Shown one piece after another: positions 325 to 35,585 of a stretch of DNA of 64,000 bases. The DNA is taken from the sequence record KF055347; one strand, 5' to 3'. The notes under the pieces are model-generated. The model was not told the origin of the DNA. It was given only the letters and a program-made list of their open reading frames with translations, and ran no database searches. Position numbers and translations under genes: made by a program. Within the stretch, counting starts at the first letter, position 1. The number at the start of each line of letters is the position of its first letter. Source of the stretch: Escherichia phage JH2.

Positions 325-888
325 TTATCCTAAAAAGTCCTTTAAATTGCGTTCTGTGAGGTTTTCCGTGATTTTATCCAGTAGGTCACAAAACACGGAA
401 CTATCACCGCTATTCTGTACAATTTTTGCAATACTCAACAAATCATCGTCAACATATCCCAAATTGCGGTTTTTCGTATCAGGTACAAAGAAAGGTGCAT
501 ACATCGCACTAAATTTCGTTGAGTGGATACTAACAATCCAATTTTTATCAAAGTATCCGGTAAAGCTGGCAATTTCGCTCATGTTGTCACAAGAATAATC
601 GTCCTCTAGTTCTTCCTCTGGGATATCCATTTCAATAACAATTACGTCCTGCGTTTCCATTTGGAAAGCTGCTGTGATAAGCCCCGACTCTAAGGCGCTT
701 TGAATGCAGCGTTCACGGATATAAGAGACTTCCTCATCTTCCAGACATTCCGTTTTGATAACCTTATTCATTGGATAAACATAGAAACAATCGTCCATGT
801 AGGAACAGTTCCAGATACCTTCAGGCTTATCGCCACCATTCAGCAGGTTTACAAAGTTTTTGAGTGTAGTTCCGTGATAGCATTTCAT
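325..888 (-). CDS. hypothetical early protein
   Basis: 187-aa ORF; start preceded on the coding strand by conserved CCTTAAACTAGGAGATTCAAAA leader. Confidence 0.5.
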   Translation of the reverse strand: MKCYHGTTLKNFVNLLNGGDKPEGIWNCSYMDDCFYVYPMNKVIKTECLEDEEVSYIRERCIQSALESGLITAAFQMETQDVIVIEMDIPEEELEDDYSCDNMSEIASFTGYFDKNWIVSIHSTKFSAMYAPFFVPDTKNRNLGYVDDDLLSIAKIVQNSGDSSVFCDLLDKITENLTERNLKDFLG

Positions 889-980
889 TTTTGAATCTCC
901 TAGTTTAAGGACTTGATTTAGTGGTAAAGCTCTTTATCTGGGGCTTACTTTATCGAACTATAAGCCCCTTGTAAAGTACT
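889..980 (-). promoter_or_regulatory. early intergenic cassette type A: GGGGCTTA..TAAGCCCC hairpin plus conserved AGGAGA leader
   Basis: near-identical ~90-bp sequence recurs between consecutive small genes; stem GGGGCTTA (940-947) pairs with TAAGCCCC (961-968). Confidence 0.55.
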
Positions 981-1184
981 TTATCGGTTATTTTTGATAA
1001 CTTTTAAAACTGCGCGGTATCCTAAGCAATAAGAATCACCGAAGAGCGACCGACCCATGAATGAATCCTCTTTGATATCCTTTGCAGTGACAGTCTTTTC
1101 TACGCCGTGAAAAAGAACTATATCGCCAACTTTGATATCTTTGATATGAGTAGTTTCAATGTTTAAACCGTTGATAATAGCCAT
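981..1184 (-). CDS. hypothetical early protein
   Basis: 67-aa ORF flanked by cassettes. Confidence 0.4.
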   Translation of the reverse strand: MAIINGLNIETTHIKDIKVGDIVLFHGVEKTVTAKDIKEDSFMGRSLFGDSYCLGYRAVLKVIKNNR

Positions 1185-2849: not shown

Positions 2850-3362
2850 TTAGTTCTTAAAGATATTCATCACTGAATCTTTCAACGATTCCAAACGTTC
2901 TAATACTTCAGATTCTGCGTCTGCGTTGTTCACCTCTTCTTTTAGTCTATCCTCTAAATCATCGCCGTCACGATAGCGCCAATCGAAAGCGTAACCAAGA
3001 TAAAAACTTTCTAAAACCGTGCTACCGTTTGCATCCACAACTTTCGCGGCAAGGCTATACTCTGAAGCCTCTAAATCTCTTTCTAGTTCTTTCTGTAAGC
3101 TTGTGTAAGCCTCTTTCGATGGATTCTCACGGCCTTGTTTTGCATAGTCACTTGAAAGCTGCTTAAGGCTGTAATGCAAAGGGATTGCATATTTAAACTC
3201 ATTACGCTGACAGTTGGTGTTTTTAATAGTTACACCGCCTTGATGGTCATCTGTAAACTCCCAATTATCCATATTATGGCTTGCTTCGTAGCAATTAACA
3301 GCCTCATAAATGATGGAAAATTTTTCTTTTACAACTTCAAAGGTAGCGTCTACAGTTTTCAT
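2850..3362 (-). CDS. hypothetical early protein
   Basis: 170-aa ORF. Confidence 0.5.
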   Translation of the reverse strand: MKTVDATFEVVKEKFSIIYEAVNCYEASHNMDNWEFTDDHQGGVTIKNTNCQRNEFKYAIPLHYSLKQLSSDYAKQGRENPSKEAYTSLQKELERDLEASEYSLAAKVVDANGSTVLESFYLGYAFDWRYRDGDDLEDRLKEEVNNADAESEVLERLESLKDSVMNIFKN

Positions 3363-3457
3363 TTTTGAATCTCCTAGTTTAAGGACTTGATTTAGTGGTA
3401 AAGCTCTTTATCTGGGGCTTAAGATATCAACTTTTAAGCCCCTTGTAAAGTACTTTA
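3363..3457 (-). promoter_or_regulatory. early intergenic cassette type A, GGGGCTTAA..TTAAGCCCC variant
   Basis: ggggcttaagatatcaacttttaagcccc followed by ttgtaaagtactttat. Confidence 0.55.
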
Positions 3458-3730
3458 TCAGATTAAATTGCCAGTTAATGATAAGTGCATTTTATAGCCT
3501 TTTTTGGTAAAAACGTTCACTTTACCGAGTGATTTTACACCTTTAAAAATGTTGTTTGAACTGCGTTTTAAGGTTAGTTGCTTATCAGCTTTCACGCCCC
3601 ACCTTACAGCAGTTTGTTTTCCGTTGTCAACCACTTTTCCGCATAACTTTTTAGCCATAACGCGAGCGTCATCACGAGTCTTTGCAGTAATTACAACGTT
3701 TTTGATAATAGCCATTTTTAAGTTCTCCAA
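3458..3730 (-). CDS. hypothetical early protein
   Basis: 90-aa ORF, basic. Confidence 0.45.
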   Translation of the reverse strand: MENLKMAIIKNVVITAKTRDDARVMAKKLCGKVVDNGKQTAVRWGVKADKQLTLKRSSNNIFKGVKSLGKVNVFTKKGYKMHLSLTGNLI

Positions 3731-3804
3731 TTTAGGATTTAGTGGTAAAGCTCTTTATCTGGGGCTTACTTTATCGAACTATAAGCCCCTTGTAAAGTAC
3801 TTTA
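3731..3804 (-). promoter_or_regulatory. early intergenic cassette type A
   Basis: repeat copy. Confidence 0.55.
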
Positions 3805-4185
3805 TTAGTTAATTTTGAAAATTGTCACATAACCATCGCTCCCGATGATTTGTGATACCCCAGCTTTCTCTACTTGATAGCCCATATTTTCAAGATGGTA
3901 AACAGCATCATCGTAACCATATGCGCCACCCTGATAACGTCGCTTATCACATTTTATCAGGTTTTTACCGCGTCCAGCAAGTGCATTCAGTACGGCTTTT
4001 TCACTTGATAGTGTACCATCTATCATGGTTGCCGTGTAATGGTTGATTTTATTCCCATTAATATCATACTTAAAATTGAATGCGTGAACAATAATCAATT
4101 TACCGTTAAATTTTTCATCAAGTGACTTCTCCAGTGCGTTGCGGAAGTTGTCTTTATTGATGAATTTCGGTGCACGATAAGCCAT
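3805..4185 (-). CDS. hypothetical early protein
   Basis: 126-aa ORF. Confidence 0.5.
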   Translation of the reverse strand: MAYRAPKFINKDNFRNALEKSLDEKFNGKLIIVHAFNFKYDINGNKINHYTATMIDGTLSSEKAVLNALAGRGKNLIKCDKRRYQGGAYGYDDAVYHLENMGYQVEKAGVSQIIGSDGYVTIFKIN

Positions 4186-4273
4186 TTTAGAATCTCCTAG
4201 TTTAAGGTAAGTTAGTAAAGCTCTTTATCTGGGGCTTAAGATATCAGCTTTTAAGCCCCTTGTAAAGTACTTT
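4186..4273 (-). promoter_or_regulatory. early intergenic cassette type A
   Basis: repeat copy, ggggcttaagatatcagcttttaagcccc. Confidence 0.55.
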
Positions 4274-4480
4274 TTATATATCGTAATAGTAAACCGCTGT
4301 CTGTTTTATATGTCGCTTTGTATTCTTTGTTAGGTAGCAATTAGAGTTAATTGCCGTTTCTACATAGTTGCAATAATCAGCTTCTGATATTCTACGCCAT
4401 GCGCCGCACACTTGCATATAAAAACGTTTTGCCTTTGTGTTAACGTTGGTTGTAACCATCAATTCGCGACTGTACATCAT
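4274..4480 (-). CDS. hypothetical early protein
   Basis: 68-aa ORF; first gene downstream of the repeat-rich non-coding region. Confidence 0.4.
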   Translation of the reverse strand: MMYSRELMVTTNVNTKAKRFYMQVCGAWRRISEADYCNYVETAINSNCYLTKNTKRHIKQTAVYYYDI

Positions 4481-4987
4481 TTTGGATTCTCCAGTTTAGG
4501 AAGTGGGCTTGCTTGCCCGTCTGATGCAAATATTAGATAACCATACTCAAAGAGTCAATAGGAATTTTAAAAATATTTTTGCAAAAAACTGTAATGAAAC
4601 GGGCGCACGCGACTACCACAAAACAGAACTACAATCAAGAATTATTTTTCAATCCGCTACAAATTTTTCTGTTGACTTTTCTTTTCGGATGTGGTAGCCT
4701 TGTGAGAAATGGCGACATCCCCACCTACACCCACCTACCTGCACAATTCTAAAATGATTTTTCTTGCCCGACCTGAGTGGGTTCTGCACGTTTTGAAAAT
4801 GAAAAAGCTCTTTGGAGATTACCTGCACAGTTTGAAAATGAATTTTCTCTTTGGAGTTCAAAATTCTCTCTACAGATTTCTGTCCAGAACTCTACCTGCA
4901 CAATCCTGAAATGAAAAAACCCTCCTTACCTGAAAAATTTACCAGATAAGAAAGGCTTAGTCTATTGTGAATATTCTACAGAGTTTC
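4481..4987. repeat. ~500-bp non-coding region with four direct repeats of CTGCACA(A/G)TT(C/T)TGAAAATGA
   Basis: repeat copies begin near 4737, 4784, 4821 and 4894; only short low-complexity ORFs; a GGGC..GCCC hairpin near 4504-4517. Confidence 0.5.
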
Positions 4988-5773
4988 TTAGTTCTTTGCG
5001 TCTAAGAAGGTAACTTCCGGTGAAGAGAAAATTTCCTCGATATCCTCATCAGTTCTTGCATAGATATACGTATCTGCATCACTGCCAAATGTTACTGCAA
5101 TCTTGTGATTGCTCTTCGACAGGTGGGTAACTAGGGCGTTACTTAGAGACATCTTTTCAACCGGAGGGTTACTTTGATGTATCTTGCCTTTTCTTCGTCT
5201 GAAGAGGGTAACTGCATCATCAGTGAACACTACTACACCTGCAAAGTATTCTGGTTCACAGTAGTTCTTCCAACCTGAGCGTAACTTGTGGTACATCTCT
5301 CCTTCGTAGACATACAGATACACATCTACACTCTTCATCAACTGATTAATGATAACGGTGACGGCTTGAGGGTCTAGCCCACCGATACCTGCACCAATCA
5401 TAGGTAACCCAACTTTCTTCAACTGATTAACTTCACAGTATCTGTTAAGCTGTTTCAAAGATGACTCTAAAGCACTATATCGGGCATCTTTACCAGTCTT
5501 AAGCTGAGTGTAAAGATTAGCTATACGGCCTTGTTCTAAACGTGCTACAGAGAAATTGCCTAGTAAATTTTCACAGGGTTTGTTACGAATGCCACCTGCA
5601 AACAGGTAAACTTCTGTGTTAGTATCATACACTTTTGGATAACGCTTAGAAATAGTTGCTGCAATACCTGCACCCATGAAATTCATACAGTTGCAACCAT
5701 GACCAATGATATCAAATTTACCTTTATCAAAGGCGTCAAAGATATCACCTTTGATGATTTTTACAATACCCAT
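4988..5773 (-). CDS. putative macro-domain (ADP-ribose binding/processing) protein
   Basis: 261 aa; N-terminal DIIGHGCNCMNFMGAGIAATISKRYP resembles the macro-domain Gly-rich ADP-ribose binding loop; C-terminal half unassigned. Confidence 0.4.
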   Translation of the reverse strand: MGIVKIIKGDIFDAFDKGKFDIIGHGCNCMNFMGAGIAATISKRYPKVYDTNTEVYLFAGGIRNKPCENLLGNFSVARLEQGRIANLYTQLKTGKDARYSALESSLKQLNRYCEVNQLKKVGLPMIGAGIGGLDPQAVTVIINQLMKSVDVYLYVYEGEMYHKLRSGWKNYCEPEYFAGVVVFTDDAVTLFRRRKGKIHQSNPPVEKMSLSNALVTHLSKSNHKIAVTFGSDADTYIYARTDEDIEEIFSSPEVTFLDAKN

Positions 5774-12891: not shown

Positions 12892-13208
12892 GACTCACCT
12901 CTCATATTTTTGTAAAGTATAAAGCTTCTGTCATGGACGATACTTGTAGATACTGCAAAGTTACTTTCAAGCATCTGTTTGTTTGGATTGTAGAAGCTTT
13001 CTTTAAACTCGTCAAGTGCAAATTGGTGATTGTCTGGAAGACCTTTTACACACACCTTTATTGTAATTGCTGCTGCAACCTTGCCAGTCAGTTCTTCTTT
13101 AGCTGCTACTAAAATTTTGTTAAGGAACTTATGACCGTTTTCAGGTTTCTTGATGTTCTCCCAGCGTTCTTCTAAGACAATATTGATATTCATTTCTTTG
13201 ATTTTCAT
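12873..13208 (-). CDS. hypothetical protein
   Basis: 111-aa ORF. Confidence 0.5.
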   Translation of the reverse strand: MKIKEMNINIVLEERWENIKKPENGHKFLNKILVAAKEELTGKVAAAITIKVCVKGLPDNHQFALDEFKESFYNPNKQMLESNFAVSTSIVHDRSFILYKNMRGESCKHIG

Positions 13209-13225
13209 AATCTTCTCCAGAAATT

Positions 13226-13246
13226 AAAAAGGCTCCCGTAGGAGCC
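13226..13246 (-). terminator. rho-independent terminator-like hairpin after the NAMPT-like gene
   Basis: GGCTCC-CGTA-GGAGCC (13231-13246) followed by a T-run on the minus strand. Confidence 0.5.
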
Positions 13247-13261
13247 TCTTATCATATACTT

Positions 13262-15043
13262 TTAAAGCTGCTTGTCAATATTATTTCGAATATCACCAAG
13301 AGTTGTGTAACCAAACTGCTCAGAGTCACTAAAGACTAAGCGTAAAGTACAAGCTGGATGTTCAAGCGCATCTGCAAAGCTCTGGAAACCATAGCCATCT
13401 ACAGCTTTCAGCTTATCACCATCCCACATAGGCGCTACACCACCAAAAGCAGACTTCTTAACACCACTATCTGTTTTAGGGTCTTTTGCAAGCATAATCT
13501 CTTTGCCACCAATACTTGCAAGAGTTGCTTTGACAGCAAATGCAAAGGTGTCACGAGTCATATACTGGTAAGTGTAAGAGCCTACACCAAATACTACGTT
13601 AGAGCTTGCAAAACCCATTTCATACAAACGCTTCAGGATTTCGTTTGCACGTTCCAACGTGATAGAGTCACCATAGATAAGTCCAATGTGCTCATCCAGT
13701 ACCTTAAAACCTTTAGAGTTGATAGTCCCTCCAAAGATGTTATACAGGGTCTTAATAGCCCCATCAATCTCTGCTACAGGACGTGTTACAACGTTTGCAG
13801 AACCAACCATATAAGCATTTTTCAACAGCACTGTATCAGCAACTTCAAAGTCTTCTCTGTCAACAACCATTTCGTAGCCTTCTGACAGTAGCCATCCAGC
13901 AATACCATAGTTGATATCCTCAAGCTTCATGTTCAGAACAGCATTCAGCATTGTGTCGCTGGCTTCCAGCTTGCTTAGGTGTTCGTAATAAGCCTTTTTA
14001 GCACACTCTAAGTGGATTGCTTTATAACCTGTGACAATATGTACAGGGTCGCCAGAGTCAGGACGAATTACCAGTTTGCCATCACGTTCCATAATCTCTT
14101 TACGAAGTGCTGGTAAGATTTCTGATACAGTTCTCCAGAAATTATAAGTGTCTGAAACAACACTTGCAATACCTGTTGGGTAAGTTTCTGTTAAGAAACG
14201 ACGGAAGGTTTGTAACTCACCTTTAAAGCGTCTTTCTTCTTCAATCAACTCATTACCACCTTCCCAAGCAATGTTTGCACACATTACAGAGTGTTCGGTG
14301 GCTGGTACAGAGCTACCAATATCAGAGATTGGGTAGGACTGTCCATAGATGCGTTTAGCTGTATACACAGCAGGGAAGCTATCAGTTCCTTTAAAGCTGG
14401 TTAAGTGGCCTACAGCGTTAAATGCGTCATCGGTAAAGCCGGACATACCACGCATAGCAAAATCATGGCACTGATAAGGCAAATGCAAGTCGTTGTCACA
14501 AGTAAGGTCAGACCACTTCTTACAGATACGTTTGTAGTGCAATGCAATAGTTGCAATGGTACAAGCCTTCCAAATCTCAGCAGAGAAAGCATCTTCCAGA
14601 TACCCAGCTACCCAATGGAAACCTGAAACAGTGTTCTGGAAGACAATCATTGGTACACGCATAGGGACAACTGTGCCTTCTTCTACAGCGTATACTTCAA
14701 CTGGTAGATAACCTAAATCGTGGAGTGCTTCCCAATGTTCTCGACCAATAGCATCTTTACCCAGAACACCATTCATGACTTCTAAGATTTCGTCAATTGC
14801 TTCTTTTTTGTCACGTTCAAAGAAGGTAGCGTTCCAGTGGTCTATCAAGTAATCTTTAACAAAGCGTTGAATACCAAAAGCCACTACACCGTCAATTGCT
14901 AAAGGGCTGTTAAACCATTTATCGCTACGTGGTGTCAGGTTAAACATCAAGTACTCTGTTGCACTAGGGTACTGGTAAACATGACCAGATTTGTAAGCAT
15001 CTGCATTAAGACCTGCTGGTACTGCGTAAAGTGACTTACTCAT
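13262..15043 (-). CDS. nicotinamide phosphoribosyltransferase-family protein (NadV-like; possible Namat-type enzyme)
   Basis: 593 aa; family-level resemblance to NAMPT/NadV; encoded directly next to a PRPP-synthetase-family gene. Confidence 0.7.
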   Translation of the reverse strand: MSKSLYAVPAGLNADAYKSGHVYQYPSATEYLMFNLTPRSDKWFNSPLAIDGVVAFGIQRFVKDYLIDHWNATFFERDKKEAIDEILEVMNGVLGKDAIGREHWEALHDLGYLPVEVYAVEEGTVVPMRVPMIVFQNTVSGFHWVAGYLEDAFSAEIWKACTIATIALHYKRICKKWSDLTCDNDLHLPYQCHDFAMRGMSGFTDDAFNAVGHLTSFKGTDSFPAVYTAKRIYGQSYPISDIGSSVPATEHSVMCANIAWEGGNELIEEERRFKGELQTFRRFLTETYPTGIASVVSDTYNFWRTVSEILPALRKEIMERDGKLVIRPDSGDPVHIVTGYKAIHLECAKKAYYEHLSKLEASDTMLNAVLNMKLEDINYGIAGWLLSEGYEMVVDREDFEVADTVLLKNAYMVGSANVVTRPVAEIDGAIKTLYNIFGGTINSKGFKVLDEHIGLIYGDSITLERANEILKRLYEMGFASSNVVFGVGSYTYQYMTRDTFAFAVKATLASIGGKEIMLAKDPKTDSGVKKSAFGGVAPMWDGDKLKAVDGYGFQSFADALEHPACTLRLVFSDSEQFGYTTLGDIRNNIDKQL

Positions 15044-15089
15044 ATTTTATATCTCTCTCAAAATGGGGCTTTTAAGCCCCTATAAAGTT

Positions 15090-15986
15090 TTAATCAAGGT
15101 TTGCTACAGTAACTTGGGCATAATGTGTTAAGCCACGGTCTTTAGCTTCCCCTAAAGAGTTTGTAGTGTAGATGTGGTCAATACCATTGTCAAGTAAGTT
15201 TTCAACACCTTTAGAGAAGATACCATGTGTTACATAGAGTTCCACACGTTTTGCACCTGCTTCACGAAGATGTTTAGCTGCTTCTATGAAGGTTCGACCA
15301 CCATCACAGATATCATCCAGAATCATGACGGTTTTATCTGTCAAATCAACATCATCAAGGATTCGCATACCAGTAATTTCACCAGTCTTAAGGTTACGTA
15401 CTTTAGACATTGTGATGTATGGCTTATCCACCTCTTTAGCAGTCTCTTCAGTCTTCTTAGCTGCACCTGCATCTGGGGCTACCAAGAAATCAATGCGTGG
15501 GTCACTTGCAAAGTGTGCTGCCACATCTTTTTGCTTCATGCTCTGAAAGCACTTAAATAAGTTTTCTGCAACATTACTGTGAGGGTCAAGAGCACATACT
15601 GCATCAAAGCCCATTGCATTAACGAGGTTGGCAAAAGCTTTCAGTGCTGCTGAATCACCTTTGAACATATGGCGGTCATATCGAGCATTCGGTAAGAACC
15701 CGAAAACAACGGTTTTCATCGCTGATTTATATGGAACAAGACTGTCAATGGCATCCTTAGCCAAAGCTAATGCAAACAGTGTATCTTTATCATATCCCTG
15801 CACAGTAAGTATAACATTGTCAATCTTACCAGCATTACGCTCAGTAAACTTAACAAAATCTTCAGAGAAGTTTCCACCAATTTCTCCAGATGGGAATTGG
15901 ATGATATTAAATTTTTCTGTGTGGAAGAATTTCTCTTGTGCGGTGACAACGGCTTCAATAATAGTTTTCATAGTTTTCTCTCTCAA
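15090..15986 (-). CDS. ribose-phosphate pyrophosphokinase-family protein (Prs-like; possible Adps-type enzyme)
   Basis: 298 aa; FPSGEIGG resembles the Prs FPDGE motif; VMILDDICDGGRTF is a PRPP-binding loop. Confidence 0.7.
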   Translation of the reverse strand: MREKTMKTIIEAVVTAQEKFFHTEKFNIIQFPSGEIGGNFSEDFVKFTERNAGKIDNVILTVQGYDKDTLFALALAKDAIDSLVPYKSAMKTVVFGFLPNARYDRHMFKGDSAALKAFANLVNAMGFDAVCALDPHSNVAENLFKCFQSMKQKDVAAHFASDPRIDFLVAPDAGAAKKTEETAKEVDKPYITMSKVRNLKTGEITGMRILDDVDLTDKTVMILDDICDGGRTFIEAAKHLREAGAKRVELYVTHGIFSKGVENLLDNGIDHIYTTNSLGEAKDRGLTHYAQVTVANLD

Positions 15987-16520
15987 TCAAAAGTTACGTT
16001 TGTTACTGCCATTGTAAGTTGCCTTATAAACTGTCTCGAACTTCAACAGGAGAGATATTGCCAAATCTGTATAGTTGTTGTCAAGCACATCTGGCATATT
16101 ATTTTTGATATATTTCTCTTGCTCTTCATAGGTCATCTTAGGGATGCTTAGAAGACTATCTCCTTGCTTCTGATTATCAGCTTTAGTCTGAATAAACCAG
16201 TTTGCGCAGTGATGTTCACCACCTTTTGTAACAGGTTTGTGGTGACCTAATGTGAAGGACTGGTTACCTGTGTATCTACAAAGCTTATTGAGCACTGCAA
16301 TGGTGTTCTTCACAACAAAACATTCATACAGATTATCTATGGTGTAATGTGGGTAATAGCGGAATAGTGCTCTTTCACGAGTACTATCACGATTCCAGAG
16401 AATCATGTGATTAGAGTTAGAAGGGTCGTATTGGTGGGAGTCAATGAACTCTTGACGTTCTTCAAAGCTGAGTCTTAGAACTGACATTGCAACCGAACGT
16501 TTCAGATTTGACAGGTACAT
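15987..16520 (-). CDS. hypothetical protein, weak HNH-like signature
   Basis: 177 aa; GHHKPVTKGGEHHCANW is loosely HNH-like but lacks the usual Cys ligands. Confidence 0.4.
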   Translation of the reverse strand: MYLSNLKRSVAMSVLRLSFEERQEFIDSHQYDPSNSNHMILWNRDSTRERALFRYYPHYTIDNLYECFVVKNTIAVLNKLCRYTGNQSFTLGHHKPVTKGGEHHCANWFIQTKADNQKQGDSLLSIPKMTYEEQEKYIKNNMPDVLDNNYTDLAISLLLKFETVYKATYNGSNKRNF

Positions 16521-16571
16521 GTTATCTCCAAAATAAAAAGGGAACCTTTACAGTTCCCTTATAGTATCTGT

Positions 16572-16892
16572 TTACTGAGCTACTTTCAAGATGCTTGTGA
16601 ACGAGATTTCACTCTCATCCATAAACTCTTTTGCTTCTCCAGTAACTTTCACAAAGTTATCTAGGCAGATAATCTTCTTATCTTTCTTGCTGTAGGTTAG
16701 CTTAACCTTTTCAATATCTTTCTTAGAGCTTTTCTCTTCATTGAAGAGTTTTACAGCCTCTTTGAATGGTAGATATGAGCCGTCATTATCACTGATGAAC
16801 CCTGTACCGCAATAGTAGCAGTTGTACTCTTTAGCCATAAACTGGCACAGTACGAAAATCTGTAATTTACGAGTGTTATAAACTTTGCTCAT
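16572..16892 (-). CDS. hypothetical protein
   Basis: 106-aa ORF. Confidence 0.45.
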   Translation of the reverse strand: MSKVYNTRKLQIFVLCQFMAKEYNCYYCGTGFISDNDGSYLPFKEAVKLFNEEKSSKKDIEKVKLTYSKKDKKIICLDNFVKVTGEAKEFMDESEISFTSILKVAQ

Positions 16893-16894
16893 GA

Positions 16895-17161
16895 TTATTT
16901 AGCCTTCTTGTTACGTTTACGGTTACGAGCTTTCTTAGCTGCACGTTTAATTGCTGCTGCACCAGTTGGTCGATGTGCTTGTTTTTTACCACCTTTTCCA
17001 CGTCCTACGTGGATGTAAGGCTGATGTTCAATTTGGTTTGCAAGAACTTGTGCAACTGCTGAAGCATCTACACCAACCTGCTTTCCAGTCGTAGAAATGA
17101 TTGCTGCTGCTTTTGCCAGTGCCTTCAAGAAGCCAGCCTTCATATTACCTAAAATTCCCAT
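16895..17161 (-). CDS. hypothetical highly basic protein
   Basis: 88 aa; Lys/Arg-rich C-terminus KRAAKKARNRKRNKKAK. Confidence 0.45.
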   Translation of the reverse strand: MGILGNMKAGFLKALAKAAAIISTTGKQVGVDASAVAQVLANQIEHQPYIHVGRGKGGKKQAHRPTGAAAIKRAAKKARNRKRNKKAK

Positions 17162-17176
17162 TTTTAGTCTCTCTCA

Positions 17177-17533
17177 TTAAAGTTTAATACAGAACTTATG
17201 AAGTTCTTCTTCAGTGATACCTATCGGAGTGATACCTCCTCTGATATTTTGAATCCTGTAGAAGTCTCCAAACTTATCTGATTCATGAATGACAAACGTG
17301 ACATTCTTTACAATCATTGCAAGAGCACATAATGAATGTGAACCAAATTTTTCTCTAGTATAAATCATCCAAGCATCTAACTTGTTGATGTCGTAAGTCC
17401 ACTTACCAGAATAATCATTCTGCTCGCCATTGACAATCACCTTGCCACCCATACTCTTTTCTCCAGAGGTTTTGGTTATCAGAACCACGATATGGTTTAA
17501 CTGTTGGTTTAGAAGAATCATACTTACCATCAA
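17177..17533 (-). CDS. hypothetical protein (true start probably internal)
   Basis: 118-aa ORF overlapping the 3-prime end of nrdG by ~119 nt in another frame. Confidence 0.3.
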   Translation of the reverse strand: MMVSMILLNQQLNHIVVLITKTSGEKSMGGKVIVNGEQNDYSGKWTYDINKLDAWMIYTREKFGSHSLCALAMIVKNVTFVIHESDKFGDFYRIQNIRGGITPIGITEEELHKFCIKL

Positions 17534-17900
17534 TCACCACGTCAACATATTTCATCACATCTAAGTGGATTTTTTCGTGCAGTTGAAAACCTGTCCAAAG
17601 CCATATAGACTTTTCTGGATAAACAGTTTTAATACGCTTACATATGTTAGTGACCTCTTGAATGTTTCTGTCATCCAGAGGCTCCCCACCAAGTATTGAC
17701 AGCCCACTGATAGCATTATCATCCATTAACTTAATGATGCCGTAGAGGTTTGCATAAGTAAACTCTTTACCAGCATTAAACTTCCAAGACTCCCTGTTAA
17801 AGCAGCCTTCACAGTGATGTTTGCAGCCAGCTACGAAGAGGCTTACCCGAACCCCTTCACCATTAGGTGTGTCAAATGGTCGAATCTCCATGTAATTCAT
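17415..17900 (-). CDS. nrdG: anaerobic ribonucleotide reductase activating protein (radical SAM)
   Basis: 161 aa; CKHHCEGC is a CxxxCxxC cluster motif; GGEP and RGSDNQNLW resemble T4 NrdG. Confidence 0.8.
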   Translation of the reverse strand: MNYMEIRPFDTPNGEGVRVSLFVAGCKHHCEGCFNRESWKFNAGKEFTYANLYGIIKLMDDNAISGLSILGGEPLDDRNIQEVTNICKRIKTVYPEKSIWLWTGFQLHEKIHLDVMKYVDVVIDGKYDSSKPTVKPYRGSDNQNLWRKEYGWQGDCQWRAE

Positions 17901-17935
17901 ATAGTTACCTCACCAATATTATTTAAGCCTTTTAC

Positions 17936-18331
17936 TCATTCAAACACTACCTGACAAGGAACCTGTTTAGTAATAAACTCTTCACAGTGTTCTTTAATGA
18001 AGTTTTGTAATGGCACACTGTCTTGTGCACAAGTCATTAGCATAATGTACTCTGGATTCATGATATTTTCAAGGGTGTAGAAGACAACATCGTCAGATAA
18101 TTCATGACCATCTTCTTCAGACCAAGTTCCAGTGACTACAGCTAGTTTATCAAGTAACTCATTAGGCAACGCTACACCGTCTTCTACGGAATCACTTAGA
18201 ACATTGTCGCTGATGTACAATGTGAAGACTGTATGGAATGTTGAGTATTTTACGTGATTCTTTTCGCAAGAGCCACACTCTGAGGCGTAGTCTTTAACCC
18301 ACTCTAACTGTTTTTGGTTCAACTTAATCAT
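17936..18331 (-). CDS. hypothetical protein
   Basis: 131-aa acidic ORF. Confidence 0.45.
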   Translation of the reverse strand: MIKLNQKQLEWVKDYASECGSCEKNHVKYSTFHTVFTLYISDNVLSDSVEDGVALPNELLDKLAVVTGTWSEEDGHELSDDVVFYTLENIMNPEYIMLMTCAQDSVPLQNFIKEHCEEFITKQVPCQVVFE

Positions 18332-18543
18332 AATTTCACCCTAGTTGGTAATGCACTGAATGCTATAGCTAACCCTAAAAATGGTTTGAAGCATGACCAT
18401 AAATCCATTTGTCCATGATATGATAAACTCCATTGTGGGTCTGAAAAACCCCATACCATAACACTAACCCCAAAGAAGAAGATTGCTATGTGTAGTATGG
18501 GTGCTAATACCCTTAAGAGTGTTGTCATTGTTAATTCCACCAT
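18328..18543 (-). CDS. hypothetical small membrane protein
   Basis: 71 aa, two hydrophobic segments. Confidence 0.4.
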   Translation of the reverse strand: MVELTMTTLLRVLAPILHIAIFFFGVSVMVWGFSDPQWSLSYHGQMDLWSCFKPFLGLAIAFSALPTRVKL

Positions 18544-18917
18544 ATAGTTTTACCATTATCACATGTGTAAAGATACTCTACAGAAGTTTGTGGGACAAGT
18601 ATAGTGGTGTTCCCACTAAGTACACTCACAAAATAAGTAACTTCACGATGTTGATGAGTTTTTACACAATTGTTTGCCTCCATCCATATCACAGTTTTGT
18701 ATGAATAGAACACCGCCAAGACACAAAGTGTAATAACCCCAACTATCATGGCAAACTCAGGCAAAAAATCTGACTGTATGATGTCCCTAAATCTCATTAT
18801 TCCAAGAATAAATAAGATTATCAGACATACAATCCCACAAACTGCTACATAAAGCCACAAGTCCATGATGCAACTCCAAATAAAAAGGTGATGTAAGCCT
18901 ATCAAGACCCACACCAC
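18531..18917 (-). CDS. hypothetical membrane protein
   Basis: 128 aa with several predicted TM segments. Confidence 0.45.
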   Translation of the reverse strand: MVWVLIGLHHLFIWSCIMDLWLYVAVCGIVCLIILFILGIMRFRDIIQSDFLPEFAMIVGVITLCVLAVFYSYKTVIWMEANNCVKTHQHREVTYFVSVLSGNTTILVPQTSVEYLYTCDNGKTIWWN

Positions 18918-18928
18918 CTTGTCAAGTT

Positions 18929-19495
18929 TTACATAAACTTATTTTTCTTACAATTGTCAAAATGGTAACGAGTCATGTTACCAGCACCACCAGTCATGCC
19001 ACAATGAGGGCAAGTTTTCTTTTCCTTTGGCTTTTTCCCAGCTTCTGACATCTTCTTCCTTGTTTCTATAGACCTTTTACATCCTTTTGATTTTGTATTA
19101 CCTATTTGGGCTTCTCCTAACCGTCTTCGATGTTCTTCAGTGAAAACCCTACCTTTATTCACAATAGATAAAGCTTTCGAGTTTAAAGCCCTTATCTTTT
19201 CATAGTCTCTGGATGATATTTTCCTGTCTAGTCCATCATGAGCTAACCTGTGCCATGCAAACCATAACTTATGGTTGTCTGGATACATCTTAACCAGCAA
19301 TTTATGAGCTATATAATGCTCTCTAGGTGTAAGTAAAGCAATATTGTCTCCACTAATTTTATCACCACCTAAGCATACTGGTATAATATGGTGTCTTTCA
19401 TAACCTTTGCCTTGACATTTGTAGTATGTGAGAGGCACACCCCTTTCAGAATGTGCCTTCTTAATAATTGCATTATAGATTAGTTCGTAATTCAT
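18929..19495 (-). CDS. free-standing HNH homing endonuclease-like protein
   Basis: 188 aa; ERHHIIPVCLGGDKISGDNIALLTPREHYIAH is an HNH motif; lies between nrdD exon 2 and nrdG. Confidence 0.65.
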   Translation of the reverse strand: MNYELIYNAIIKKAHSERGVPLTYYKCQGKGYERHHIIPVCLGGDKISGDNIALLTPREHYIAHKLLVKMYPDNHKLWFAWHRLAHDGLDRKISSRDYEKIRALNSKALSIVNKGRVFTEEHRRRLGEAQIGNTKSKGCKRSIETRKKMSEAGKKPKEKKTCPHCGMTGGAGNMTRYHFDNCKKNKFM

Positions 19496-19502
19496 TTAGA
19501 TG

Positions 19503-20450
19503 CTACATAGAAACCCTATCCTTAATTTCTGCCATCTTAGCGTCATTCATTCGAGACTGACCTTTAATTTTTGTGAATGACAAGTACCCGCACACCCTGT
19601 TAATCACAGAGATATCATGTGAATGGCAAACCTCACATTCTTCAACATCAGCCTTTGGTCTGTTACCGCAATGCTCACAGATTGCTAAGTCAAAGTTAAG
19701 TCCCTGATAAAAACCTTTCAACATCCCTCTTGTAATACAACTTTTAAGTGCTGGTAAGTTTTCTGGGTTAGCTACCCTCACATACTGGATTCTGCCACCT
19801 CTACAGATATGGAAGAATGGCTCTTCTAAGTCCTGCTTCTCAAATGGTGAGATGTTTGCTGCAACATTCATATGGAAACTGTTTGTAAAGTATTCCTTGT
19901 CAGAGACACCTTTAATAACGCCAAACATATCTCTGAACTGTTTTAACTGAGTTCCACAAAGTGATTCTGCTGGAGTGCCATATACCGCATACAAGAAGCC
20001 ATCTTCGTTCTTAAACTCTTCAGTTTTCATGTTAATGTATGCCAGAACATCGTATGCAAAACTATAGCTTCCAACTTCATGAAGTCGTTTACCTTCAGCA
20101 AGAACAGACAACTCATCAAGAGCAGTAACCCCAAAAGAGGCTGTGAAAGACTTCACAATATCCCAGCCAACCTTGTCAGTAGGTTTCTTAGTCCCTTTGT
20201 ACAGACCACCTTGTGTGAATGCAAGAGGGTTAGAACTTGCTGGCATATTAGCAATCATCTCGTAGCGTTTCTTGTGGAAGCTGCGAATCATCTCTAGGTA
20301 CTTATCAAGCTCCTTCCAGAAATCTAAACCATTCTCTTTAGAATATTGGTAAATCATTGGTAAGTTCAAAGATACAGCACCAATGTTAGCACGACCTACA
20401 TAAAACTCTTCACCATCTTCGTTATGATATGGTGATAAGAACGCTCTACA
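19503..20450 (-). CDS. nrdD: anaerobic ribonucleoside-triphosphate reductase NrdD, exon 2
   Basis: reading frame is open upstream of the annotated Met to CRAFLSP at 20450, continuing T4 NrdD ..PMG/CRSFLS; contains TNSFH and C-terminal Cys cluster. Confidence 0.75.
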   Translation of the reverse strand, partial: CRAFLSPYHNEDGEEFYVGRANIGAVSLNLPMIYQYSKENGLDFWKELDKYLEMIRSFHKKRYEMIANMPASSNPLAFTQGGLYKGTKKPTDKVGWDIVKSFTASFGVTALDELSVLAEGKRLHEVGSYSFAYDVLAYINMKTEEFKNEDGFLYAVYGTPAESLCGTQLKQFRDMFGVIKGVSDKEYFTNSFHMNVAANISPFEKQDLEEPFFHICRGGRIQYVRVANPENLPALKSCITRGMLKGFYQGLNFDLAICEHCGNRPKADVEECEVCHSHDISVINRVCGYLSFTKIKGQSRMNDAKMAEIKDRVSM

Positions 20451-21192
20451 CTTGTTGTTCAGGTAAGTTCGCTACGCTTACCCCGCTTTATTCAAGCTGC
20501 TTACTGTCACCAGTAAGTCCAGACTATATCTTCTACTTATTTCTAAGTAGCGTACCATTTCGAGTCGCTTGACCCTACACCGCTACATTCATCACGGTTA
20601 GTCGTTCGGCATTTAAATGTACTCAAAATCATGTTCAAAGTTATTATGCTCTTTTACACACTTCAATATTGAAGAGATAGTCTTGCGATTATACCCAAGT
20701 ACATTAGATAACTCTCGTATTGACTTAGCAACAATAACTTCTTTTGTCACTTTATGTGTAGCCTTCACAGCATATGAACGCTTACAAAACTTGTAGCAAC
20801 CATTCTCATAGCCTTCTTTAACATTCTCAGAATGAGTTCCCCATTCTAAGTTAGAAGCATGGTTGTTCAGTTTGTTATCATCTTTGTGTTTTACAATTGG
20901 AAGATTGTTAGGGTTAGGTACATACTTTTCAGCAACTAACCTATGGACATACATGTCACGATTCTTCCTTCCATAAAACCTTACTTTCATATAACCAGTG
21001 TTGGATTTCCACTGCGTAAGTTCTACACCATTTTTCCTAAAGACTCTTCCGTCCTCAGTAACATGATAATTTGGCATGTAATACTCCTATTTTATATAGT
21101 TTCTTACATCGTACATCATTTAGCACAGGATTGTCTACACCTGTAGAGTTTCCCTGTTTAGGCACGTTTTAGATGAGCTATAGAGCTTGTTA
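20451..21192 (-). mobile_element. group I intron in nrdD carrying an HNH homing endonuclease ORF
   Basis: exon 1 ends ..ISPMG with a U then an in-frame stop; conserved core element AAGATATAGTC on the minus strand (plus 20522-20530); intron ends in G before TGT. Confidence 0.7.
20613..21077 (-). CDS. intron-encoded HNH-family homing endonuclease
   Basis: 154 aa; HKDDNKLNNHASNLEWGTHSEN is an HNH_3-type motif; located inside the nrdD intron. Confidence 0.65.
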   Translation of the reverse strand: MPNYHVTEDGRVFRKNGVELTQWKSNTGYMKVRFYGRKNRDMYVHRLVAEKYVPNPNNLPIVKHKDDNKLNNHASNLEWGTHSENVKEGYENGCYKFCKRSYAVKATHKVTKEVIVAKSIRELSNVLGYNRKTISSILKCVKEHNNFEHDFEYI

Positions 21193-22389
21193 ACCCATCG
21201 GTGAAATAACCTTACCAGAACGCTCAAAAGCCTCTGCTACAGCACCGTGACCAGATACACTTAAGAAATCTGGATACATTGCTTTAGAGCAACACTCAAC
21301 GGCTTTACTGTACAGGTGTCCTTGACAGATATTCTCATTGTGTCTCTTCTGGTCATGAATATAAACCAGTTTAGGGAATACAACAGGCTTCTTACTCTTA
21401 CCTTGTCCATTCATGCGAACATCAAGAATGGTGTTTGCAATCATGTATTGCAGTCGGTTGTCTTCATTAGACATATCTGAGTCAAGTAAACCAAATGTTA
21501 AAGTTGTGAATGCAAAATCACCACGGCTACAAGGTACAGTATTTAGTTTCATTTCGAGTGACTGGAAGCCTTGAGTTAATTCAATCTGTAGCTGCTCCAT
21601 GACATAATTATGGTAATGTTCTTTAGGAATACCGTAAGATGCTGCTTTCTCAGCATGATAGCGTAGAGACTTCTTAGCATACGGTACAAGCACCTTATCA
21701 ATCTCTGCTAAAGTAAATCCACCAAATTGCTGTGCAGTTGCTGAAAGAACTACATCACCGATAACTTGTAAGGCTGACAGTACAGACTTCGGTTCACAGT
21801 ATTCGATGCCAGACATTTCAAAGCCGCCTTTCAGTACTTTACCAATGTCAAACAAGCAACAGTTAATACCGCCAAAAATCAGGTCTCTCAAATCGTGGAT
21901 ATAGATAAACCCTTTTTCAATGGATTCAAGTTCCTCTGGTGTTAAATGGTACTGTTTAAAGATTTCTTTAGTCAGATAACCACGAATAATTGAACCTTTT
22001 GTAGAAATTAAACTACTGTCAAAGTTAGCATTTTCACGGTCACCTAAGAAGAGTGTGTCTTTAGTCTTTTGGTAAAGCTCATCCCAATTTTGAGCAACCT
22101 CTTTACGATAATTTCTATATGTTGAGTAAGACTCATAAATCTCGTGATTTACTTCTGCCAAAGCACCCTCAACAATACTGTGAATATCGTTTACTGAGAT
22201 GAGCAAATTATTCTGCTTAGTGGACTTTACCAGAATCCTCATAAATGCTGACTCAAGAGCTTGAGTAACATCTGGTGGAAGTTCTTTATAACCAACCCTG
22301 TTAGCTGACTTTGTGACTGCTGCTAAAACTTTTTTGATATCAGGTTCTTCGAGTGAGCCATTCTTTTTAATAATCTGTACTTTGTTCAT
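21193..22389 (-). CDS. nrdD: anaerobic ribonucleoside-triphosphate reductase NrdD, exon 1
   Basis: N-terminal ATP-cone-like region; IYIHDLRDLIFGGINCCLFD aligns with T4 NrdD HVHDIDY..NCCLVD; ends ISPMG. Confidence 0.75.
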
Positions 22390-35328: not shown

Positions 35329-35585
35329 GTAAGCCTCTTTTAAGTAACTATTAAGTTTTAATCTTTTATCTTAACGTATTCTATACGTTATACTTTAAAG
35401 CTTTTTAAAAGCTATTAAATAATCTTTTAAGAGTTTTAAAGTATCTGTATAGTTAAACTGTTAAGTAACCTTTTAAGTAAAAACCCACTTCGCAAAGATT
35501 AACACCTTGTCAAGTACATTGTCAACTTGCTTTTTATAATTTTTTGCAGTAATGTATGTGGTTAATGATTTTAGAGGGAGTAAAA
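35329..35585. promoter_or_regulatory. divergent AT-rich intergenic control region
   Basis: 257 bp between divergent gene blocks; repeated CTTTTAAG motifs, duplicated TTGTCAA, TATAAT hexamer; GAGGGAG RBS before the polymerase start. Confidence 0.45.

What the first reader, a model, noticed from the sequence alone, without database searches (positions are those of the whole stretch)
4481..4987. 500-bp non-coding island with four direct repeats at the head of the early gene array
This is the largest gap in the window. It holds at least four copies of CTGCACA(A/G)TT(C/T)TGAAAATGA at irregular spacing (starts near 4737, 4784, 4821, 4894), two of them extended by ..CTCTTTGGAG. The only ORFs are short and repeat-derived. 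Possible roles are an iteron-type replication origin, a cluster of regulator binding sites for early transcription, or a small RNA locus.
Basis: seen in the sequence. Interest (0 to 1): 0.6.

Follow-up and report, generated by a model that had tools for sequence, protein, structure and literature searches.

The report
Conserved non-coding repeat array, Felix O1-like phage
A 507-bp gene-free island in a Felix O1-like phage carries four copies of a 19-24 bp DNA motif that selection has kept in place across the whole phage subfamily; it most likely binds a protein (possibly at a replication origin), but its function is untested.

Summary
Window 4481-4987 is the largest real intergenic gap. It holds four same-orientation copies of TGCAC-N7-AAATGA-W5, with CTGCAC starting at 4739, 4784, 4823 and 4896, and the motif occurs nowhere else in the 64 kb.

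The window is a Felixounavirus. The array lies downstream of the macro-domain gene in Felixounavirus, Suspvirus, Mooglevirus, Kolesnikvirus and a distant uncultured relative, with 3-5 copies. About 16% of columns vary in the unit cores, against 44% at third codon positions of the neighbouring gene.

It is not coding: there is no codon-position bias, and the ORF is broken in several lineages. It is not a structured RNA: there is no Rfam hit and no covariation, and the A5/T5 tract swaps strand between copies. It is not the terminal repeat, which lies about 6 kb away.

The best reading is an array of asymmetric protein-binding sites on the DNA. The function is unresolved. I favour a replication origin (about 0.3). 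The rivals are a transcriptional boundary or regulator sites, a plus-strand RNA, and a T5-like injection-stop site. This would be a new member of a known kind, of moderate interest.

The parts
4481..4987 (.). Whole non-coding island between the macro-domain/'phosphatase' gene (4988-5773, minus) and a 68-aa gene (4274-4480, minus)
   Evidence: The homologous gap of about 460-530 bp is present in Felixounavirus, Suspvirus, Mooglevirus and Kolesnikvirus records.
4739..4762 (+). Unit R1: CTGCAC-AATTCTA-AAATGA + TTTTT
4784..4817 (+). Unit R2: CTGCAC-GTTTTGA-AAATGA + AAAAG + CTCTTTGGAG tail
4823..4856 (+). Unit R3: CTGCAC-AGTTTGA-AAATGA + ATTTT + CTCTTTGGAG tail
4896..4919 (+). Unit R4: CTGCAC-AATCCTG-AAATGA + AAAAA. 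Its A-run is the T-run of the minus-strand terminator.
4914..4958 (-). Intrinsic terminator of the rIIA-to-macro operon. The arms are 4955-4942 and 4933-4920 and the T-run is 4919-4914. The G-U pairs make it work only on the minus strand.
   Evidence: only U-G to C-G one-sided changes. The Si3-like lineage keeps a hairpin with both arms changed.
4681..4733 (.). Hypervariable cassette with two alleles. Allele A (this window) is C-rich on the plus strand and supplies the -10 hexamer TAGCCT. Allele B (Felix O1, wV8 and most relatives) carries a canonical G-quadruplex motif, GGGGAGAGGGGGAGTAAGAGGGGGAGAGGGG, on the plus strand.
   Evidence: 83% of columns variable; 12 allele A and 21 allele B among 33 distinct sequences.
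4672..4700 (+). Predicted plus-strand sigma-70 promoter TTGACT-17-TAGCCT, reading into the repeats. The predicted start is about 4707, directly at the ATG of the spurious 66-aa ORF.
   Evidence: PWM score 12.1, above the 99.99th percentile of the window. The -35 is about 100% conserved. The -10 is weak in allele B (scores 4.6-5.3).
4601..4680 (.). Almost invariant A/T-rich block between the two divergent promoters
   Evidence: 13.8% variable columns.
4530..4558 (-). Minus-strand sigma-70 promoter TTGACT-17-TAATAT for the first small gene, with an A/T-rich upstream stretch at 4560-4600
   Evidence: score 10.0. The equivalent in phiEa21-4 is TTGACT-17-TATATT.
4709..4909 (+). Repeat-derived 66-aa ORF, judged non-coding

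Best explanation
The island is a conserved, non-coding, cis-acting control region of Felix O1-like (Ounavirinae) phages.

The four repeats act as double-stranded DNA, not as RNA or protein. Each is an asymmetric bipartite site, TGCAC-N7-AAATGA followed by a 5-bp A- or T-tract. I infer that a sequence-specific DNA-binding protein, phage or host and not yet identified, binds each site. Two conserved blocks about 12 bp apart suit a protein that contacts two successive major grooves, with the narrow-groove A/T tract alongside.

My preferred function, which is inferred and not shown, is a replication origin. In that model the site array sits beside divergent promoters and an A/T-rich block. Local transcription and/or bound protein would open the DNA for the phage's T7-like primase-helicase and family-A polymerase.

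Shown: uniqueness, conservation, non-coding status, and the DNA-level pattern of constraint. Inferred: protein binding. Speculative: the origin function.
For: The motif is unique in 64 kb. It is absent from E. coli genomes, plasmids and bacterial reference genomes.

The array keeps the same place and orientation, downstream of the macro gene, in four genera. It is also present in a distant uncultured relative, L064, which has only 45-60% amino-acid identity in flanking genes. In Erwinia phages, blastn similarity to the island survives only over the repeats.

Variable columns are 15.6% in the unit cores and 13.8% in 4601-4680. In the adjacent macro gene, across the same phages, they are 43.9% at third codon positions and 13% at first positions.

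The blocks TGCAC and AAAATGA are near-invariant over 34 units from 9 lineages, and the N7 length is fixed. The tract after AAATGA is A5 in some copies and T5 in others, and this differs between lineages. Such a swap is neutral for DNA shape but not for RNA.

Copy number varies from 3 to 5, as it does for iterons.

Features that fit an origin:
- The location is unique.
- A/T-rich stretch 4528-4600 is the fifth least stable 50-bp stretch in the window.
- Divergent promoters flank the region.
- The replisome is T7-like and has no dedicated initiator gene. From my own knowledge, T7 and T4 start such replisomes from promoter-plus-A/T-rich origins.
- Units in Kolesnikvirus and L064 read CTATGCACA or TTATGCACG, one mismatch from the DnaA box TTWTNCACA.
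Against: No protein binding has been shown, and no candidate binder lies next to the array. The neighbours have no known domains.

Unit spacing is irregular and differs by lineage: 45/39/73, 45/41/75, 39/37/37 and 38/38/110/38. The units are therefore not helically phased as in classical iteron origins.

The GC skew does not turn at the gap.

The least stable DNA in the window lies elsewhere. Region 35329-35555, next to the DNA polymerase gene, carries its own repeats and a 27-nt palindrome and is an equally good origin candidate.

In this window the units match the DnaA box at only 6 of 9 positions. One-mismatch DnaA boxes are common in this A/T-rich genome (176 in 64 kb).

The replication genes are 25-30 kb away.
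Confidence: 0.32

Rival explanations
1. Transcriptional boundary or regulator sites. A protein bound to the array would act as a roadblock or insulator behind the macro-operon terminator. Alternatively it would control the local divergent promoters and so help time early versus middle expression.
For: R4 overlaps the terminator T-run in four genera. The array sits between a long operon and the first promoter of the early array. The phage encodes a Cro/C1-type HTH protein at 42712-43041. In Felix O1, non-strand-specific RT-PCR for the ORF in the gap peaks at 25 min, while both neighbours peak at 5 min.
Against: The motif is absent from all other early promoter cassettes and from the rest of the window. 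The minus promoter is more than 180 bp away, beyond a hypervariable cassette, and the gene it drives is itself replaced in many relatives. The sites are asymmetric direct repeats, unlike typical HTH_3 operators. The palindromic CTTTTAAG repeats at 35.4 kb fit that regulator better. L064 has the array but no recognisable terminator.
Confidence: 0.22
2. A plus-strand non-coding RNA. In the window allele it would start at about 4707. Its four unstructured repeat motifs would act in RNA, for example as a sponge or as an antisense RNA running into the macro gene.
For: A strong predicted plus-strand promoter lies at 4672-4700 (score 12.1). phiEa21-4 has a comparable one, TTGACG-18-TATACT (12.3). The plus-strand RNA is predicted to be less structured than shuffled controls (z = +1.29). 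RT-PCR in Felix O1 detects RNA over the gap.
Against: The -10 hexamer is poor in allele B, which accounts for 21 of 33 distinct sequences and includes Felix O1 itself. There is no plus-strand terminator, because the hairpin has four C-A mismatches on that strand. There is no Rfam match and no covariation (covariation term +1.75). The A5/T5 swap changes the RNA sequence drastically. L064 has no comparable promoter.
Confidence: 0.13
3. An injection-stop or membrane-anchoring site like the T5 iss. This would be a conserved untranslated repeat region at about 8-9% of the genome from the left physical end. It would halt DNA entry or tether the DNA after the small takeover genes have entered.
For: The terminal repeat maps about 6 kb from the island. 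In JLBYU28 the gap lies at 7.4-7.9 kb of 86.8 kb, or 8.6-9.1%, against 7.9% for the T5 first-step-transfer DNA. Like the T5 iss, it is better conserved than the neighbouring ORFs. The T5 iss is proposed to work through DnaA boxes (bioRxiv 10.1101/866236), and the Kolesnikvirus and L064 units are near-DnaA boxes.
Against: No two-step injection is known for Felix O1-like myoviruses. It is unknown which end enters first. The DnaA-box match is poor in the window. The T5 model is itself a hypothesis. The resemblance is positional only.
Confidence: 0.07
4. A small protein gene: either the plus-strand 66-aa ORF at 4709-4909, possibly translated from a leaderless mRNA, or the minus-strand 50-aa ORF at 4749-4901 that is annotated in some records.
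For: The plus-strand ORF is open in most Felixounavirus and Suspvirus sequences, because the 45- and 39-nt spacings are multiples of 3. Its ATG sits at the predicted transcription start of allele A. Annotators have called ORFs here in wV8 gp13, SME50_072, Mijalis_118 and mistaenkt_18.
Against: Variable sites by codon position are 15/13/17 for the plus ORF and 12/15/11 for the minus ORF. The macro-gene control, across the same phages, gives 34/15/115. The frame is broken in wV8 (a 2-nt deletion), Mooglevirus (a stop after R2), Kolesnikvirus (37-nt spacings), the Si3-like three-unit variants and L010 (a 10-nt deletion). R3 and R4 nevertheless stay conserved in those lineages. Allele B has no ATG. 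L064 has no ORF of at least 50 aa across its array.
Confidence: 0.04
5. The terminal repeat or packaging (pac) site of the genome.
For: Felix O1-like phages have direct terminal repeats of about 580-610 bp, close to the size of the island (PMC4837284, PMC8303462). Three IMG/VR contigs end inside the island.
Against: The published Bal31/SpeI end fragments of UAB_Phi87 (4322 + 2819 bp, DTR 608 bp) fit only the SpeI fragment 13014-19582. That places the repeat at about 15.3-15.9 kb, while the island is at 21.9-22.4 kb. Many records open in that terminal non-coding region. The contig ends are assembly breaks at the G-rich cassette: one runs into a Nextera adapter and one is chimeric. The contig that ends in the island does not carry the motif at its other end.
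Confidence: 0.02

Closest known systems
Iteron-type origins (phage lambda ori with four 19-bp iterons; plasmid P1, F and R6K origins)
   Same: There are three to five direct repeats of about 19-24 bp in one orientation, inside a non-coding A/T-rich control region. The location is unique in the genome. Copy number varies between relatives.
   Different: Spacing is 37-75 bp and is not helically phased, whereas iterons sit at about 20-24 bp regular spacing. No initiator gene overlaps or adjoins the array. No Rep, O or DnaA-like protein was found nearby. No replication data exist.
Transcription-activated phage origins (T7 primary origin; T4 oriF/oriG; lactococcal phage c2 ori). Comparison from my own knowledge.
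   Same: The replisome is T7-like (gp4-type primase-helicase and family-A polymerase). A promoter reads into an A/T-rich non-coding segment. In most alleles a G-rich tract lies just downstream of the promoter and could stabilise an R-loop.
   Different: Those origins need no repeated specific motif. Here the plus-strand promoter is strong in only one allele, and in the window allele the G-rich tract is on the other strand.
T5 injection stop signal (iss) region (Davison, bioRxiv 10.1101/866236)
   Same: It is an untranslated repeat region that is better conserved than the surrounding ORFs. It lies about 8-9% of the genome from a terminally repeated end, behind a block of small early genes. Some lineages have DnaA-box-like cores.
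   Different: The T5 region is more than 1 kb, with inverted repeats, palindromes and paired canonical DnaA boxes. Here there is a simple direct array with a different motif. Two-step injection is not known in this group.
DnaA-box clusters (oriC, datA)
   Same: The core TGCACA contains the TNCACA half of TTWTNCACA. Kolesnikvirus and L064 units are 8/9 matches, with four in one orientation.
   Different: Units in the window and in all Felixounavirus, Mooglevirus and Suspvirus sequences are 6/9 matches (ACCTGCACA). The second conserved block, AAATGA plus the W5 tract, has no counterpart in DnaA boxes.
phi29 p4 site array at the early/late switch region. Comparison from my own knowledge.
   Same: Four binding sites in a region of about 200 bp between divergent promoters, rich in A/T tracts.
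   Different: p4 sites are inverted repeats. The phages share no homology. The motif here does not overlap the promoters.

Membership tests
Iteron-type replication origin | At least three direct repeats of about 17-24 bp in one orientation | tested here: met
   Four units in the window and 3-5 in relatives.
Iteron-type replication origin | Regular, helically phased spacing (about 2 turns) | tested here: not met
   Spacings are 45/39/73, 45/41/75, 39/37/37 and 38/38/110/38 nt.
Iteron-type replication origin | Adjacent DNA-unwinding element (the least stable A/T-rich DNA) | tested here: inconclusive
   Stretch 4528-4600 ranks fifth at 50-bp scale. It is not prominent at 100-bp scale, where 35340-35460 is the minimum.
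Iteron-type replication origin | Cognate initiator gene overlapping or next to the repeats | tested here: not met
   The neighbours are a macro-domain protein and proteins of unknown function with no DNA-binding or Rep domains. The replication genes lie at 28-39 kb.
Iteron-type replication origin | Replication initiates there, or the segment supports or perturbs replication | not testable with these tools
   This needs marker-frequency or nascent-strand mapping, or plasmid interference assays.
DnaA-box cluster | Matches to TTWTNCACA with at most 1 mismatch | tested here: not met
   Window units are ACCTGCACA or TTCTGCACG, with 2-3 mismatches. The feature is met only in phiEa21-4 (CTATGCACA three times, TTATGCACG once) and partly in L064.
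Small regulatory RNA / Rfam family | Match to a curated covariance model | tested here: not met
   No hit in the island even at E <= 10.
Small regulatory RNA / Rfam family | Conserved secondary structure with covariation, plus its own promoter and terminator | tested here: not met
   Plus strand z = +1.29. Minus strand z = -1.97, due to the terminator alone. The covariation term is unfavourable. The promoter is allele-dependent. There is no plus-strand terminator.
Protein-coding gene | Excess of third-position substitutions, and a reading frame kept across relatives | tested here: not met
   15/13/17 and 12/15/11 variable sites against 34/15/115 in the control gene. The frame is broken in several lineages.
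Direct terminal repeat / pac site | Coincides with the physical genome ends | tested here: not met
   The published end fragments of UAB_Phi87 place the DTR about 6 kb away. Records that open at the end start 7.4 kb from the island.
CRISPR-like mini-array | Regularly spaced identical repeats with unique spacers of constant length | tested here: not met
   Spacing is irregular. The repeats are 62-86% identical. The 'spacers' are conserved between phages.
Tandem sigma-70 promoters | Each unit supplies a -35 and a -10 at 16-18 bp spacing | tested here: not met
   This holds for only two unit junctions in phiEa21-4 (TTGCCA-17-TAAAAT and TTGCCA-17-GAAAAT). In the window, wV8, Mijalis and L064 the scores are 6.7 or lower.
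T5-type injection stop region | Conserved untranslated repeat region about 8% from a terminally repeated end | tested here: met
   7.4-7.9 kb of 86.8 kb in JLBYU28. Conservation exceeds that of the neighbouring ORFs.
T5-type injection stop region | Two-step DNA transfer that pauses at the site | not testable with these tools
   This needs interrupted-infection experiments.

The most novel reading that the evidence does not exclude
The array is the core of a previously unrecognised kind of origin or entry-control element in lytic phages that use host RNA polymerase. In this reading, 3-5 bipartite sites recruit a host factor, such as DnaA or another membrane- or replisome-associated protein. The adjacent exchangeable cassette (G-quadruplex allele versus promoter allele) sets how the DNA is opened, either by an R-loop/G4 or by transcription. 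The same element could also mark the boundary of a first-entering 'takeover' segment, as the iss is proposed to do in T5.
Probability: 0.1. Interest if true: 0.7.

Novelty: new member of a known kind. Interest (0 to 1): 0.45.

Why it matters
Felix O1-like phages are classic Salmonella-typing phages and widely used biocontrol and therapy phages. Their origin of replication, temporal control and DNA-entry mechanism are all unknown.

This island is one of very few non-coding segments kept across the whole subfamily. It therefore gives a precise, testable handle: a 24-bp bait, four sites to mutate, and two natural alleles of the neighbouring cassette. If it proves to be the origin, it would show how a T7-like replisome is started without a phage RNA polymerase. 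It would also mark a site that phage engineers must not disrupt.

The analysis also shows that the ORFs annotated inside the gap in many GenBank records are almost certainly spurious.

Tried and rejected
1. Terminal repeat or pac site: rejected. I reconstructed the SpeI map of UAB_Phi87 against the published Bal31 data. The 542-bp duplicated ends of the RefSeq record are an assembly overlap in the tRNA region. LF110P4 is simply opened at terL.

2. IMG/VR contig ends inside the island as physical ends: rejected. One runs into a Nextera adapter, one is chimeric, and the breaks fall at the G-rich cassette.

3. Protein coding on either strand: rejected by the codon-position test with a control gene, and by frame breaks.

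4. Structured RNA or a known RNA family: rejected.

5. Host transcription-factor sites. I compared the unit by eye with the consensus sites for IHF, Fis, CRP, the sigma-54 promoter, the MarA/SoxS box, PhoB, TorR, CpxR, LexA and NtrC, and with Type I restriction sites. None fits both conserved blocks. This is inference from recalled consensus sequences, not a database test.

6. DnaA boxes: convincing only in Kolesnikvirus and L064.

7. Tandem promoters: only two junctions in phiEa21-4 qualify.

8. GC-skew inflection: none.

9. Host or plasmid origin of the sequence: no match in E. coli genomes, plasmids or GTDB genomes. Three unrelated tandem arrays turned up in MAGs.

10. Literature: nothing on this element or on an Ounavirinae origin or sRNA. 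The PhageMaP study of Bas63 reports gene scores only, and no supplement was available.

11. Neighbouring proteins as the binder: no domains found.

Full report
**What the window is.** Megablast of 4200-5300 finds 249 phage records, almost all Felixounavirus (Felix O1-like myoviruses of Escherichia, Salmonella and Shigella), at 90-98% identity. All genes from 1 to about 35.3 kb are on the minus strand. The island 4481-4987 lies between a macro-domain gene often annotated 'phosphatase/Tk.4' (4988-5773; Pfam Macro) and a 68-aa gene (4274-4480). Downstream lie about ten small genes of unknown function. These are separated by repeated hairpin-plus-promoter cassettes of about 100 bp.

**The observation.** Four direct repeats are real. 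The unit is 19 nt, CTGCAC-A-N-TT-Y-K-R-AAATGA, at 4739, 4784, 4823 and 4896. The corrected pattern finds the four copies at 0-1 mismatch and only two 3-mismatch chance hits elsewhere in 64 kb. The expected number is 0.79, and no shuffle reached 6. R2 and R3 carry the CTCTTTGGAG tail. With the short ORFs discounted, this is the largest intergenic gap; the next is 276 bp.

**Anatomy, read along the minus strand (the direction of transcription).**
- Macro stop codon at 4990-4988.
- A long hairpin with arms 4955-4942 and 4933-4920, in which all positions pair only if G-U is allowed. It therefore works on the minus strand only.
- A T6 run at 4919-4914. This is an intrinsic terminator.
- Unit R4 overlaps its T-run.
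- R3, R2 and R1 follow.
- A 53-bp hypervariable cassette at 4681-4733.
- An almost invariant A/T-rich block at 4601-4680.
- An A/T-rich stretch at 4560-4600.
- The sigma-70 promoter TTGACT-17-TAATAT at 4558-4530, which drives the first small gene.

On the plus strand a position-weight scan gives TTGACT-17-TAGCCT at 4672-4700. Its score of 12.1 is above the 99.99th percentile of all sites in the window. This promoter reads into the repeats.

**Conservation.** A distant-mode BLAST of the island finds 287 records. They include Suspvirus, Mooglevirus and, over the repeats only, 28 Erwinia phages of Kolesnikvirus. Four same-orientation units follow the macro-gene terminator in:
- wV8
- Mijalis (spacing 45/41/75)
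- mistaenkt
- phiEa21-4 (spacing 39/37/37)

Pattern scans of IMG/VR and of metagenomes added two more arrangements:
- A Si3-like sub-lineage has three units.
- L064, an 88-kb uncultured phage, has five units (one degenerate).

L064 shares only 45-60% amino-acid identity with the window in collinear genes and has no close GenBank relative.

Over 34 units from 9 lineages, TGCAC and AAAATGA are near-invariant and the N7 distance is fixed. The following 5-bp tract is always A/T. Among 17 Felixounavirus sequences, the share of variable columns is:

| Region | Variable columns |
|---|---|
| Unit cores | 15.6% |
| Block 4601-4680 | 13.8% |
| Cassette 4681-4733 | 83% |
| Macro gene, codon positions 1 / 2 / 3 | 13% / 5.7% / 43.9% |

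The array is therefore under purifying selection about as strong as that on non-synonymous sites.

**Not coding.** A 66-aa plus-strand ORF (4709-4909) runs through R1-R3, because 45 and 39 are multiples of 3. It stays open in most Felixounavirus sequences. However:
- Variable sites fall 15/13/17 across codon positions (12/15/11 for the annotated minus-strand ORF), against 34/15/115 in the control gene.
- The frame is broken in wV8, Mooglevirus, Kolesnikvirus, the three-unit variants and L010, while the downstream units stay conserved.
- Allele B has no ATG.
- L064 has no ORF of at least 50 aa across its array.

The ORFs annotated here in several GenBank records are best regarded as spurious.

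**Not a structured or known RNA.**
- Rfam gives nothing in the island even at E <= 10, and there is no tRNA or tmRNA.
- The plus strand folds worse than shuffled sequence (z = +1.29). The minus strand gives z = -1.97, because of the terminator.
- RNAalifold finds support only for the terminator hairpin (U-G to C-G changes) and gives an unfavourable covariation term.
- The tract after AAATGA is A5 in some copies and T5 in others, and which copy carries which differs between genera. That swap is neutral for a DNA minor-groove feature but not for an RNA motif.

**Not the genome end.** Felix O1-like phages have terminal repeats of about 580-610 bp (PMC4837284, PMC8303462). I therefore tested whether the 507-bp island is that repeat.
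- The published Bal31-sensitive SpeI fragments of UAB_Phi87 are 4322 and 2819 bp, with a 608-bp repeat. Together these require a circular-map SpeI fragment of about 6.53 kb.
- The only candidate is 13014-19582 (6568 bp). That puts the repeat at about 15.3-15.9 kb, inside a 1.7-kb non-coding region. The island is at 21.9-22.4 kb.
- Several records open in that terminal region, for example JLBYU28, where the island lies at 7.43-7.94 kb.
- IMG/VR contigs that end inside the island are assembly breaks at the G-rich cassette. One runs into a Nextera adapter and one is chimeric.

**What it most likely is.** The motif is unique, deeply conserved, asymmetric and bipartite. It carries an A/T tract that does not care about strand, and it occurs in a variable number of copies. 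All of this points to recognition sites on duplex DNA for a sequence-specific protein. I hold that much with roughly 0.75 confidence, although binding itself is inferred.

**Which process it serves is open.**
- Regulator sites for early transcription fit poorly. The motif is missing from every other early promoter cassette. The nearest minus-strand promoter is more than 180 bp away, beyond a hypervariable cassette. The gene that promoter drives is itself swapped among relatives.
- A replication origin fits the uniqueness, the A/T-rich flank and the flanking promoters.
- It also fits a T7-type replisome that lacks any recognisable initiator.
- The near-DnaA-box cores in two lineages point the same way.
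- Against an origin are the unphased spacing and the lack of any GC-skew turn.
- No adjacent initiator gene was found.
- There is also a rival candidate at 35329-35555. That region holds the least stable DNA of the window, with CTTTTAAG repeats and a 27-nt palindrome next to the polymerase gene.

I therefore rate the origin at about 0.3, a transcriptional boundary or regulator role at about 0.2, a plus-strand RNA at about 0.13, and a T5-iss-like entry-control site at about 0.07.

**The plus-strand promoter and the cassette.** The -35 hexamer and its upstream A/T block are essentially invariant. The -10 hexamer lies in the exchangeable cassette. Among 33 distinct upstream sequences:
- 12 carry allele A, with TAGCCT (one TAGTCT), a good -10 and a C-rich downstream stretch.
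- 21 carry allele B, with TAAGAG or TAATAG, a poor -10. Nineteen of these have a canonical four-run G-quadruplex motif on the plus strand.

phiEa21-4 has a different strong plus-strand promoter, and a G-rich tract upstream of its array. Whether these are alternative ways of opening the DNA or just an unconstrained spacer cannot be decided here.

Felix O1 RT-PCR, which is not strand-specific, detects RNA across the gap ORF ('gene 14'). I fixed that gene numbering from the positions of the published 57-bp repeats. This RNA peaks at 25 min, whereas the macro gene and gene 16 peak at 5 min. That is compatible with late read-through or a separate transcript, but it is not decisive.

**Comparison with known systems.** The array works most like iterons or other repeated initiator or regulator sites, but it fails the membership tests for spacing and for an adjacent initiator. 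It resembles the T5 iss region only in position and in being better conserved than its neighbours. No paper in the searchable library describes it. wV8 annotates only a repeat, DR_6, at the other end of the gap, plus the terminator. It is absent from E. coli genomes, plasmids and bacterial reference genomes.

**Verdict.** This is a real, strongly constrained, non-coding DNA element specific to Ounavirinae, and its function is still to be shown. I file it as a new member of a known kind: repeated protein-binding sites in a phage control or origin region. Interest is moderate (0.45).

Noticed in passing
window 883-985, 1680-1778, 3357-3459, 3706-3812, 4183-4273: Cassettes of about 100 bp are repeated between the small minus-strand genes. 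Each has a GC-rich hairpin (for example GGGGCTTAA...TTAAGCCCC) sitting inside the spacer of a sigma-70 promoter (TTTACA-17-TATCTT at 4266-4238). This resembles the promoter-early stem-loop (PeSL) modules that shuffle small genes in T4-type phages. The downstream gene types are indeed swapped among relatives.
   Followed up: partly
window 35329-35555: This divergent intergenic region sits upstream of the DNA polymerase gene and is the least stable (most A/T-rich) DNA of the window. It carries several CTTTTAAG-type repeats and an imperfect palindrome with 27-nt arms. It is an alternative candidate for an origin, or for the operators of the Cro/C1-type HTH protein encoded at 42712-43041.
   Followed up: partly
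window 35556-39087: The family-A DNA polymerase gene is split. An N-terminal part (35556-37769) and a C-terminal part (38533-39087) are separated by an Endonuclease VII/HNH-type ORF (37837-38319). This looks like a homing-endonuclease insertion.
   Followed up: partly
L098 (JLBYU28) 1-1722; UAB_Phi87 L048 about 14590-16246 (outside the window): The 1.7-kb non-coding region that holds the terminal repeat contains many copies of a short motif, (C)TTAACA(R); I counted more than 40 by eye. The distant relative L064 has about ten copies of the reverse complement, TGTTAA, at L064 610-760, directly beside its five-unit array.
   Followed up: partly
window 4681-4733 and homologous positions in relatives: There are two sharply distinct alleles of a 53-bp cassette between invariant flanks. 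One has a good -10 hexamer and a C-rich tract. The other has a canonical G-quadruplex motif on the plus strand. Both occur within Felixounavirus, independently of the type of downstream gene.
   Followed up: partly
L026/L027 (NC_027360.1 ends): The RefSeq record of UAB_Phi87 begins and ends with the same 542 bp, inside the tRNA region. This is an assembly overlap, not the experimentally determined 608-bp terminal repeat.
   Followed up: yes
L017 4084-4122; L020 after position about 4007: One IMG/VR viral contig ends in Nextera adapter sequence (CTGTCTCTTATACACATCT...). Another switches to unrelated sequence inside the island, so it is a chimeric assembly.
   Followed up: yes
L076 880-1030; L078 1930-2100 (minus): MAG contigs from Ignavibacteriales and Bacteroidetes carry non-coding tandem arrays with a 20-21-bp period and the form TTGCAC-N7-AATGA. 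They look like iterons and superficially match the unit pattern. They are probably unrelated.
   Followed up: no
window 5734-5756 (+): A terminator-like hairpin with a T-run lies on the plus strand, inside the start of the macro gene and antisense to it. A transcript from the plus-strand promoter at 4672 would end there after about 1 kb, making a full antisense RNA of the macro gene. It may well be a chance match: 3 such sites were found against 1.5 expected.
   Followed up: no
window 19503-22389: By homology with the UAB_Phi87 annotation, the anaerobic ribonucleotide reductase gene nrdD appears split (19503-20369 and 21190-22389) by a homing-endonuclease ORF (20613-21077).
   Followed up: no
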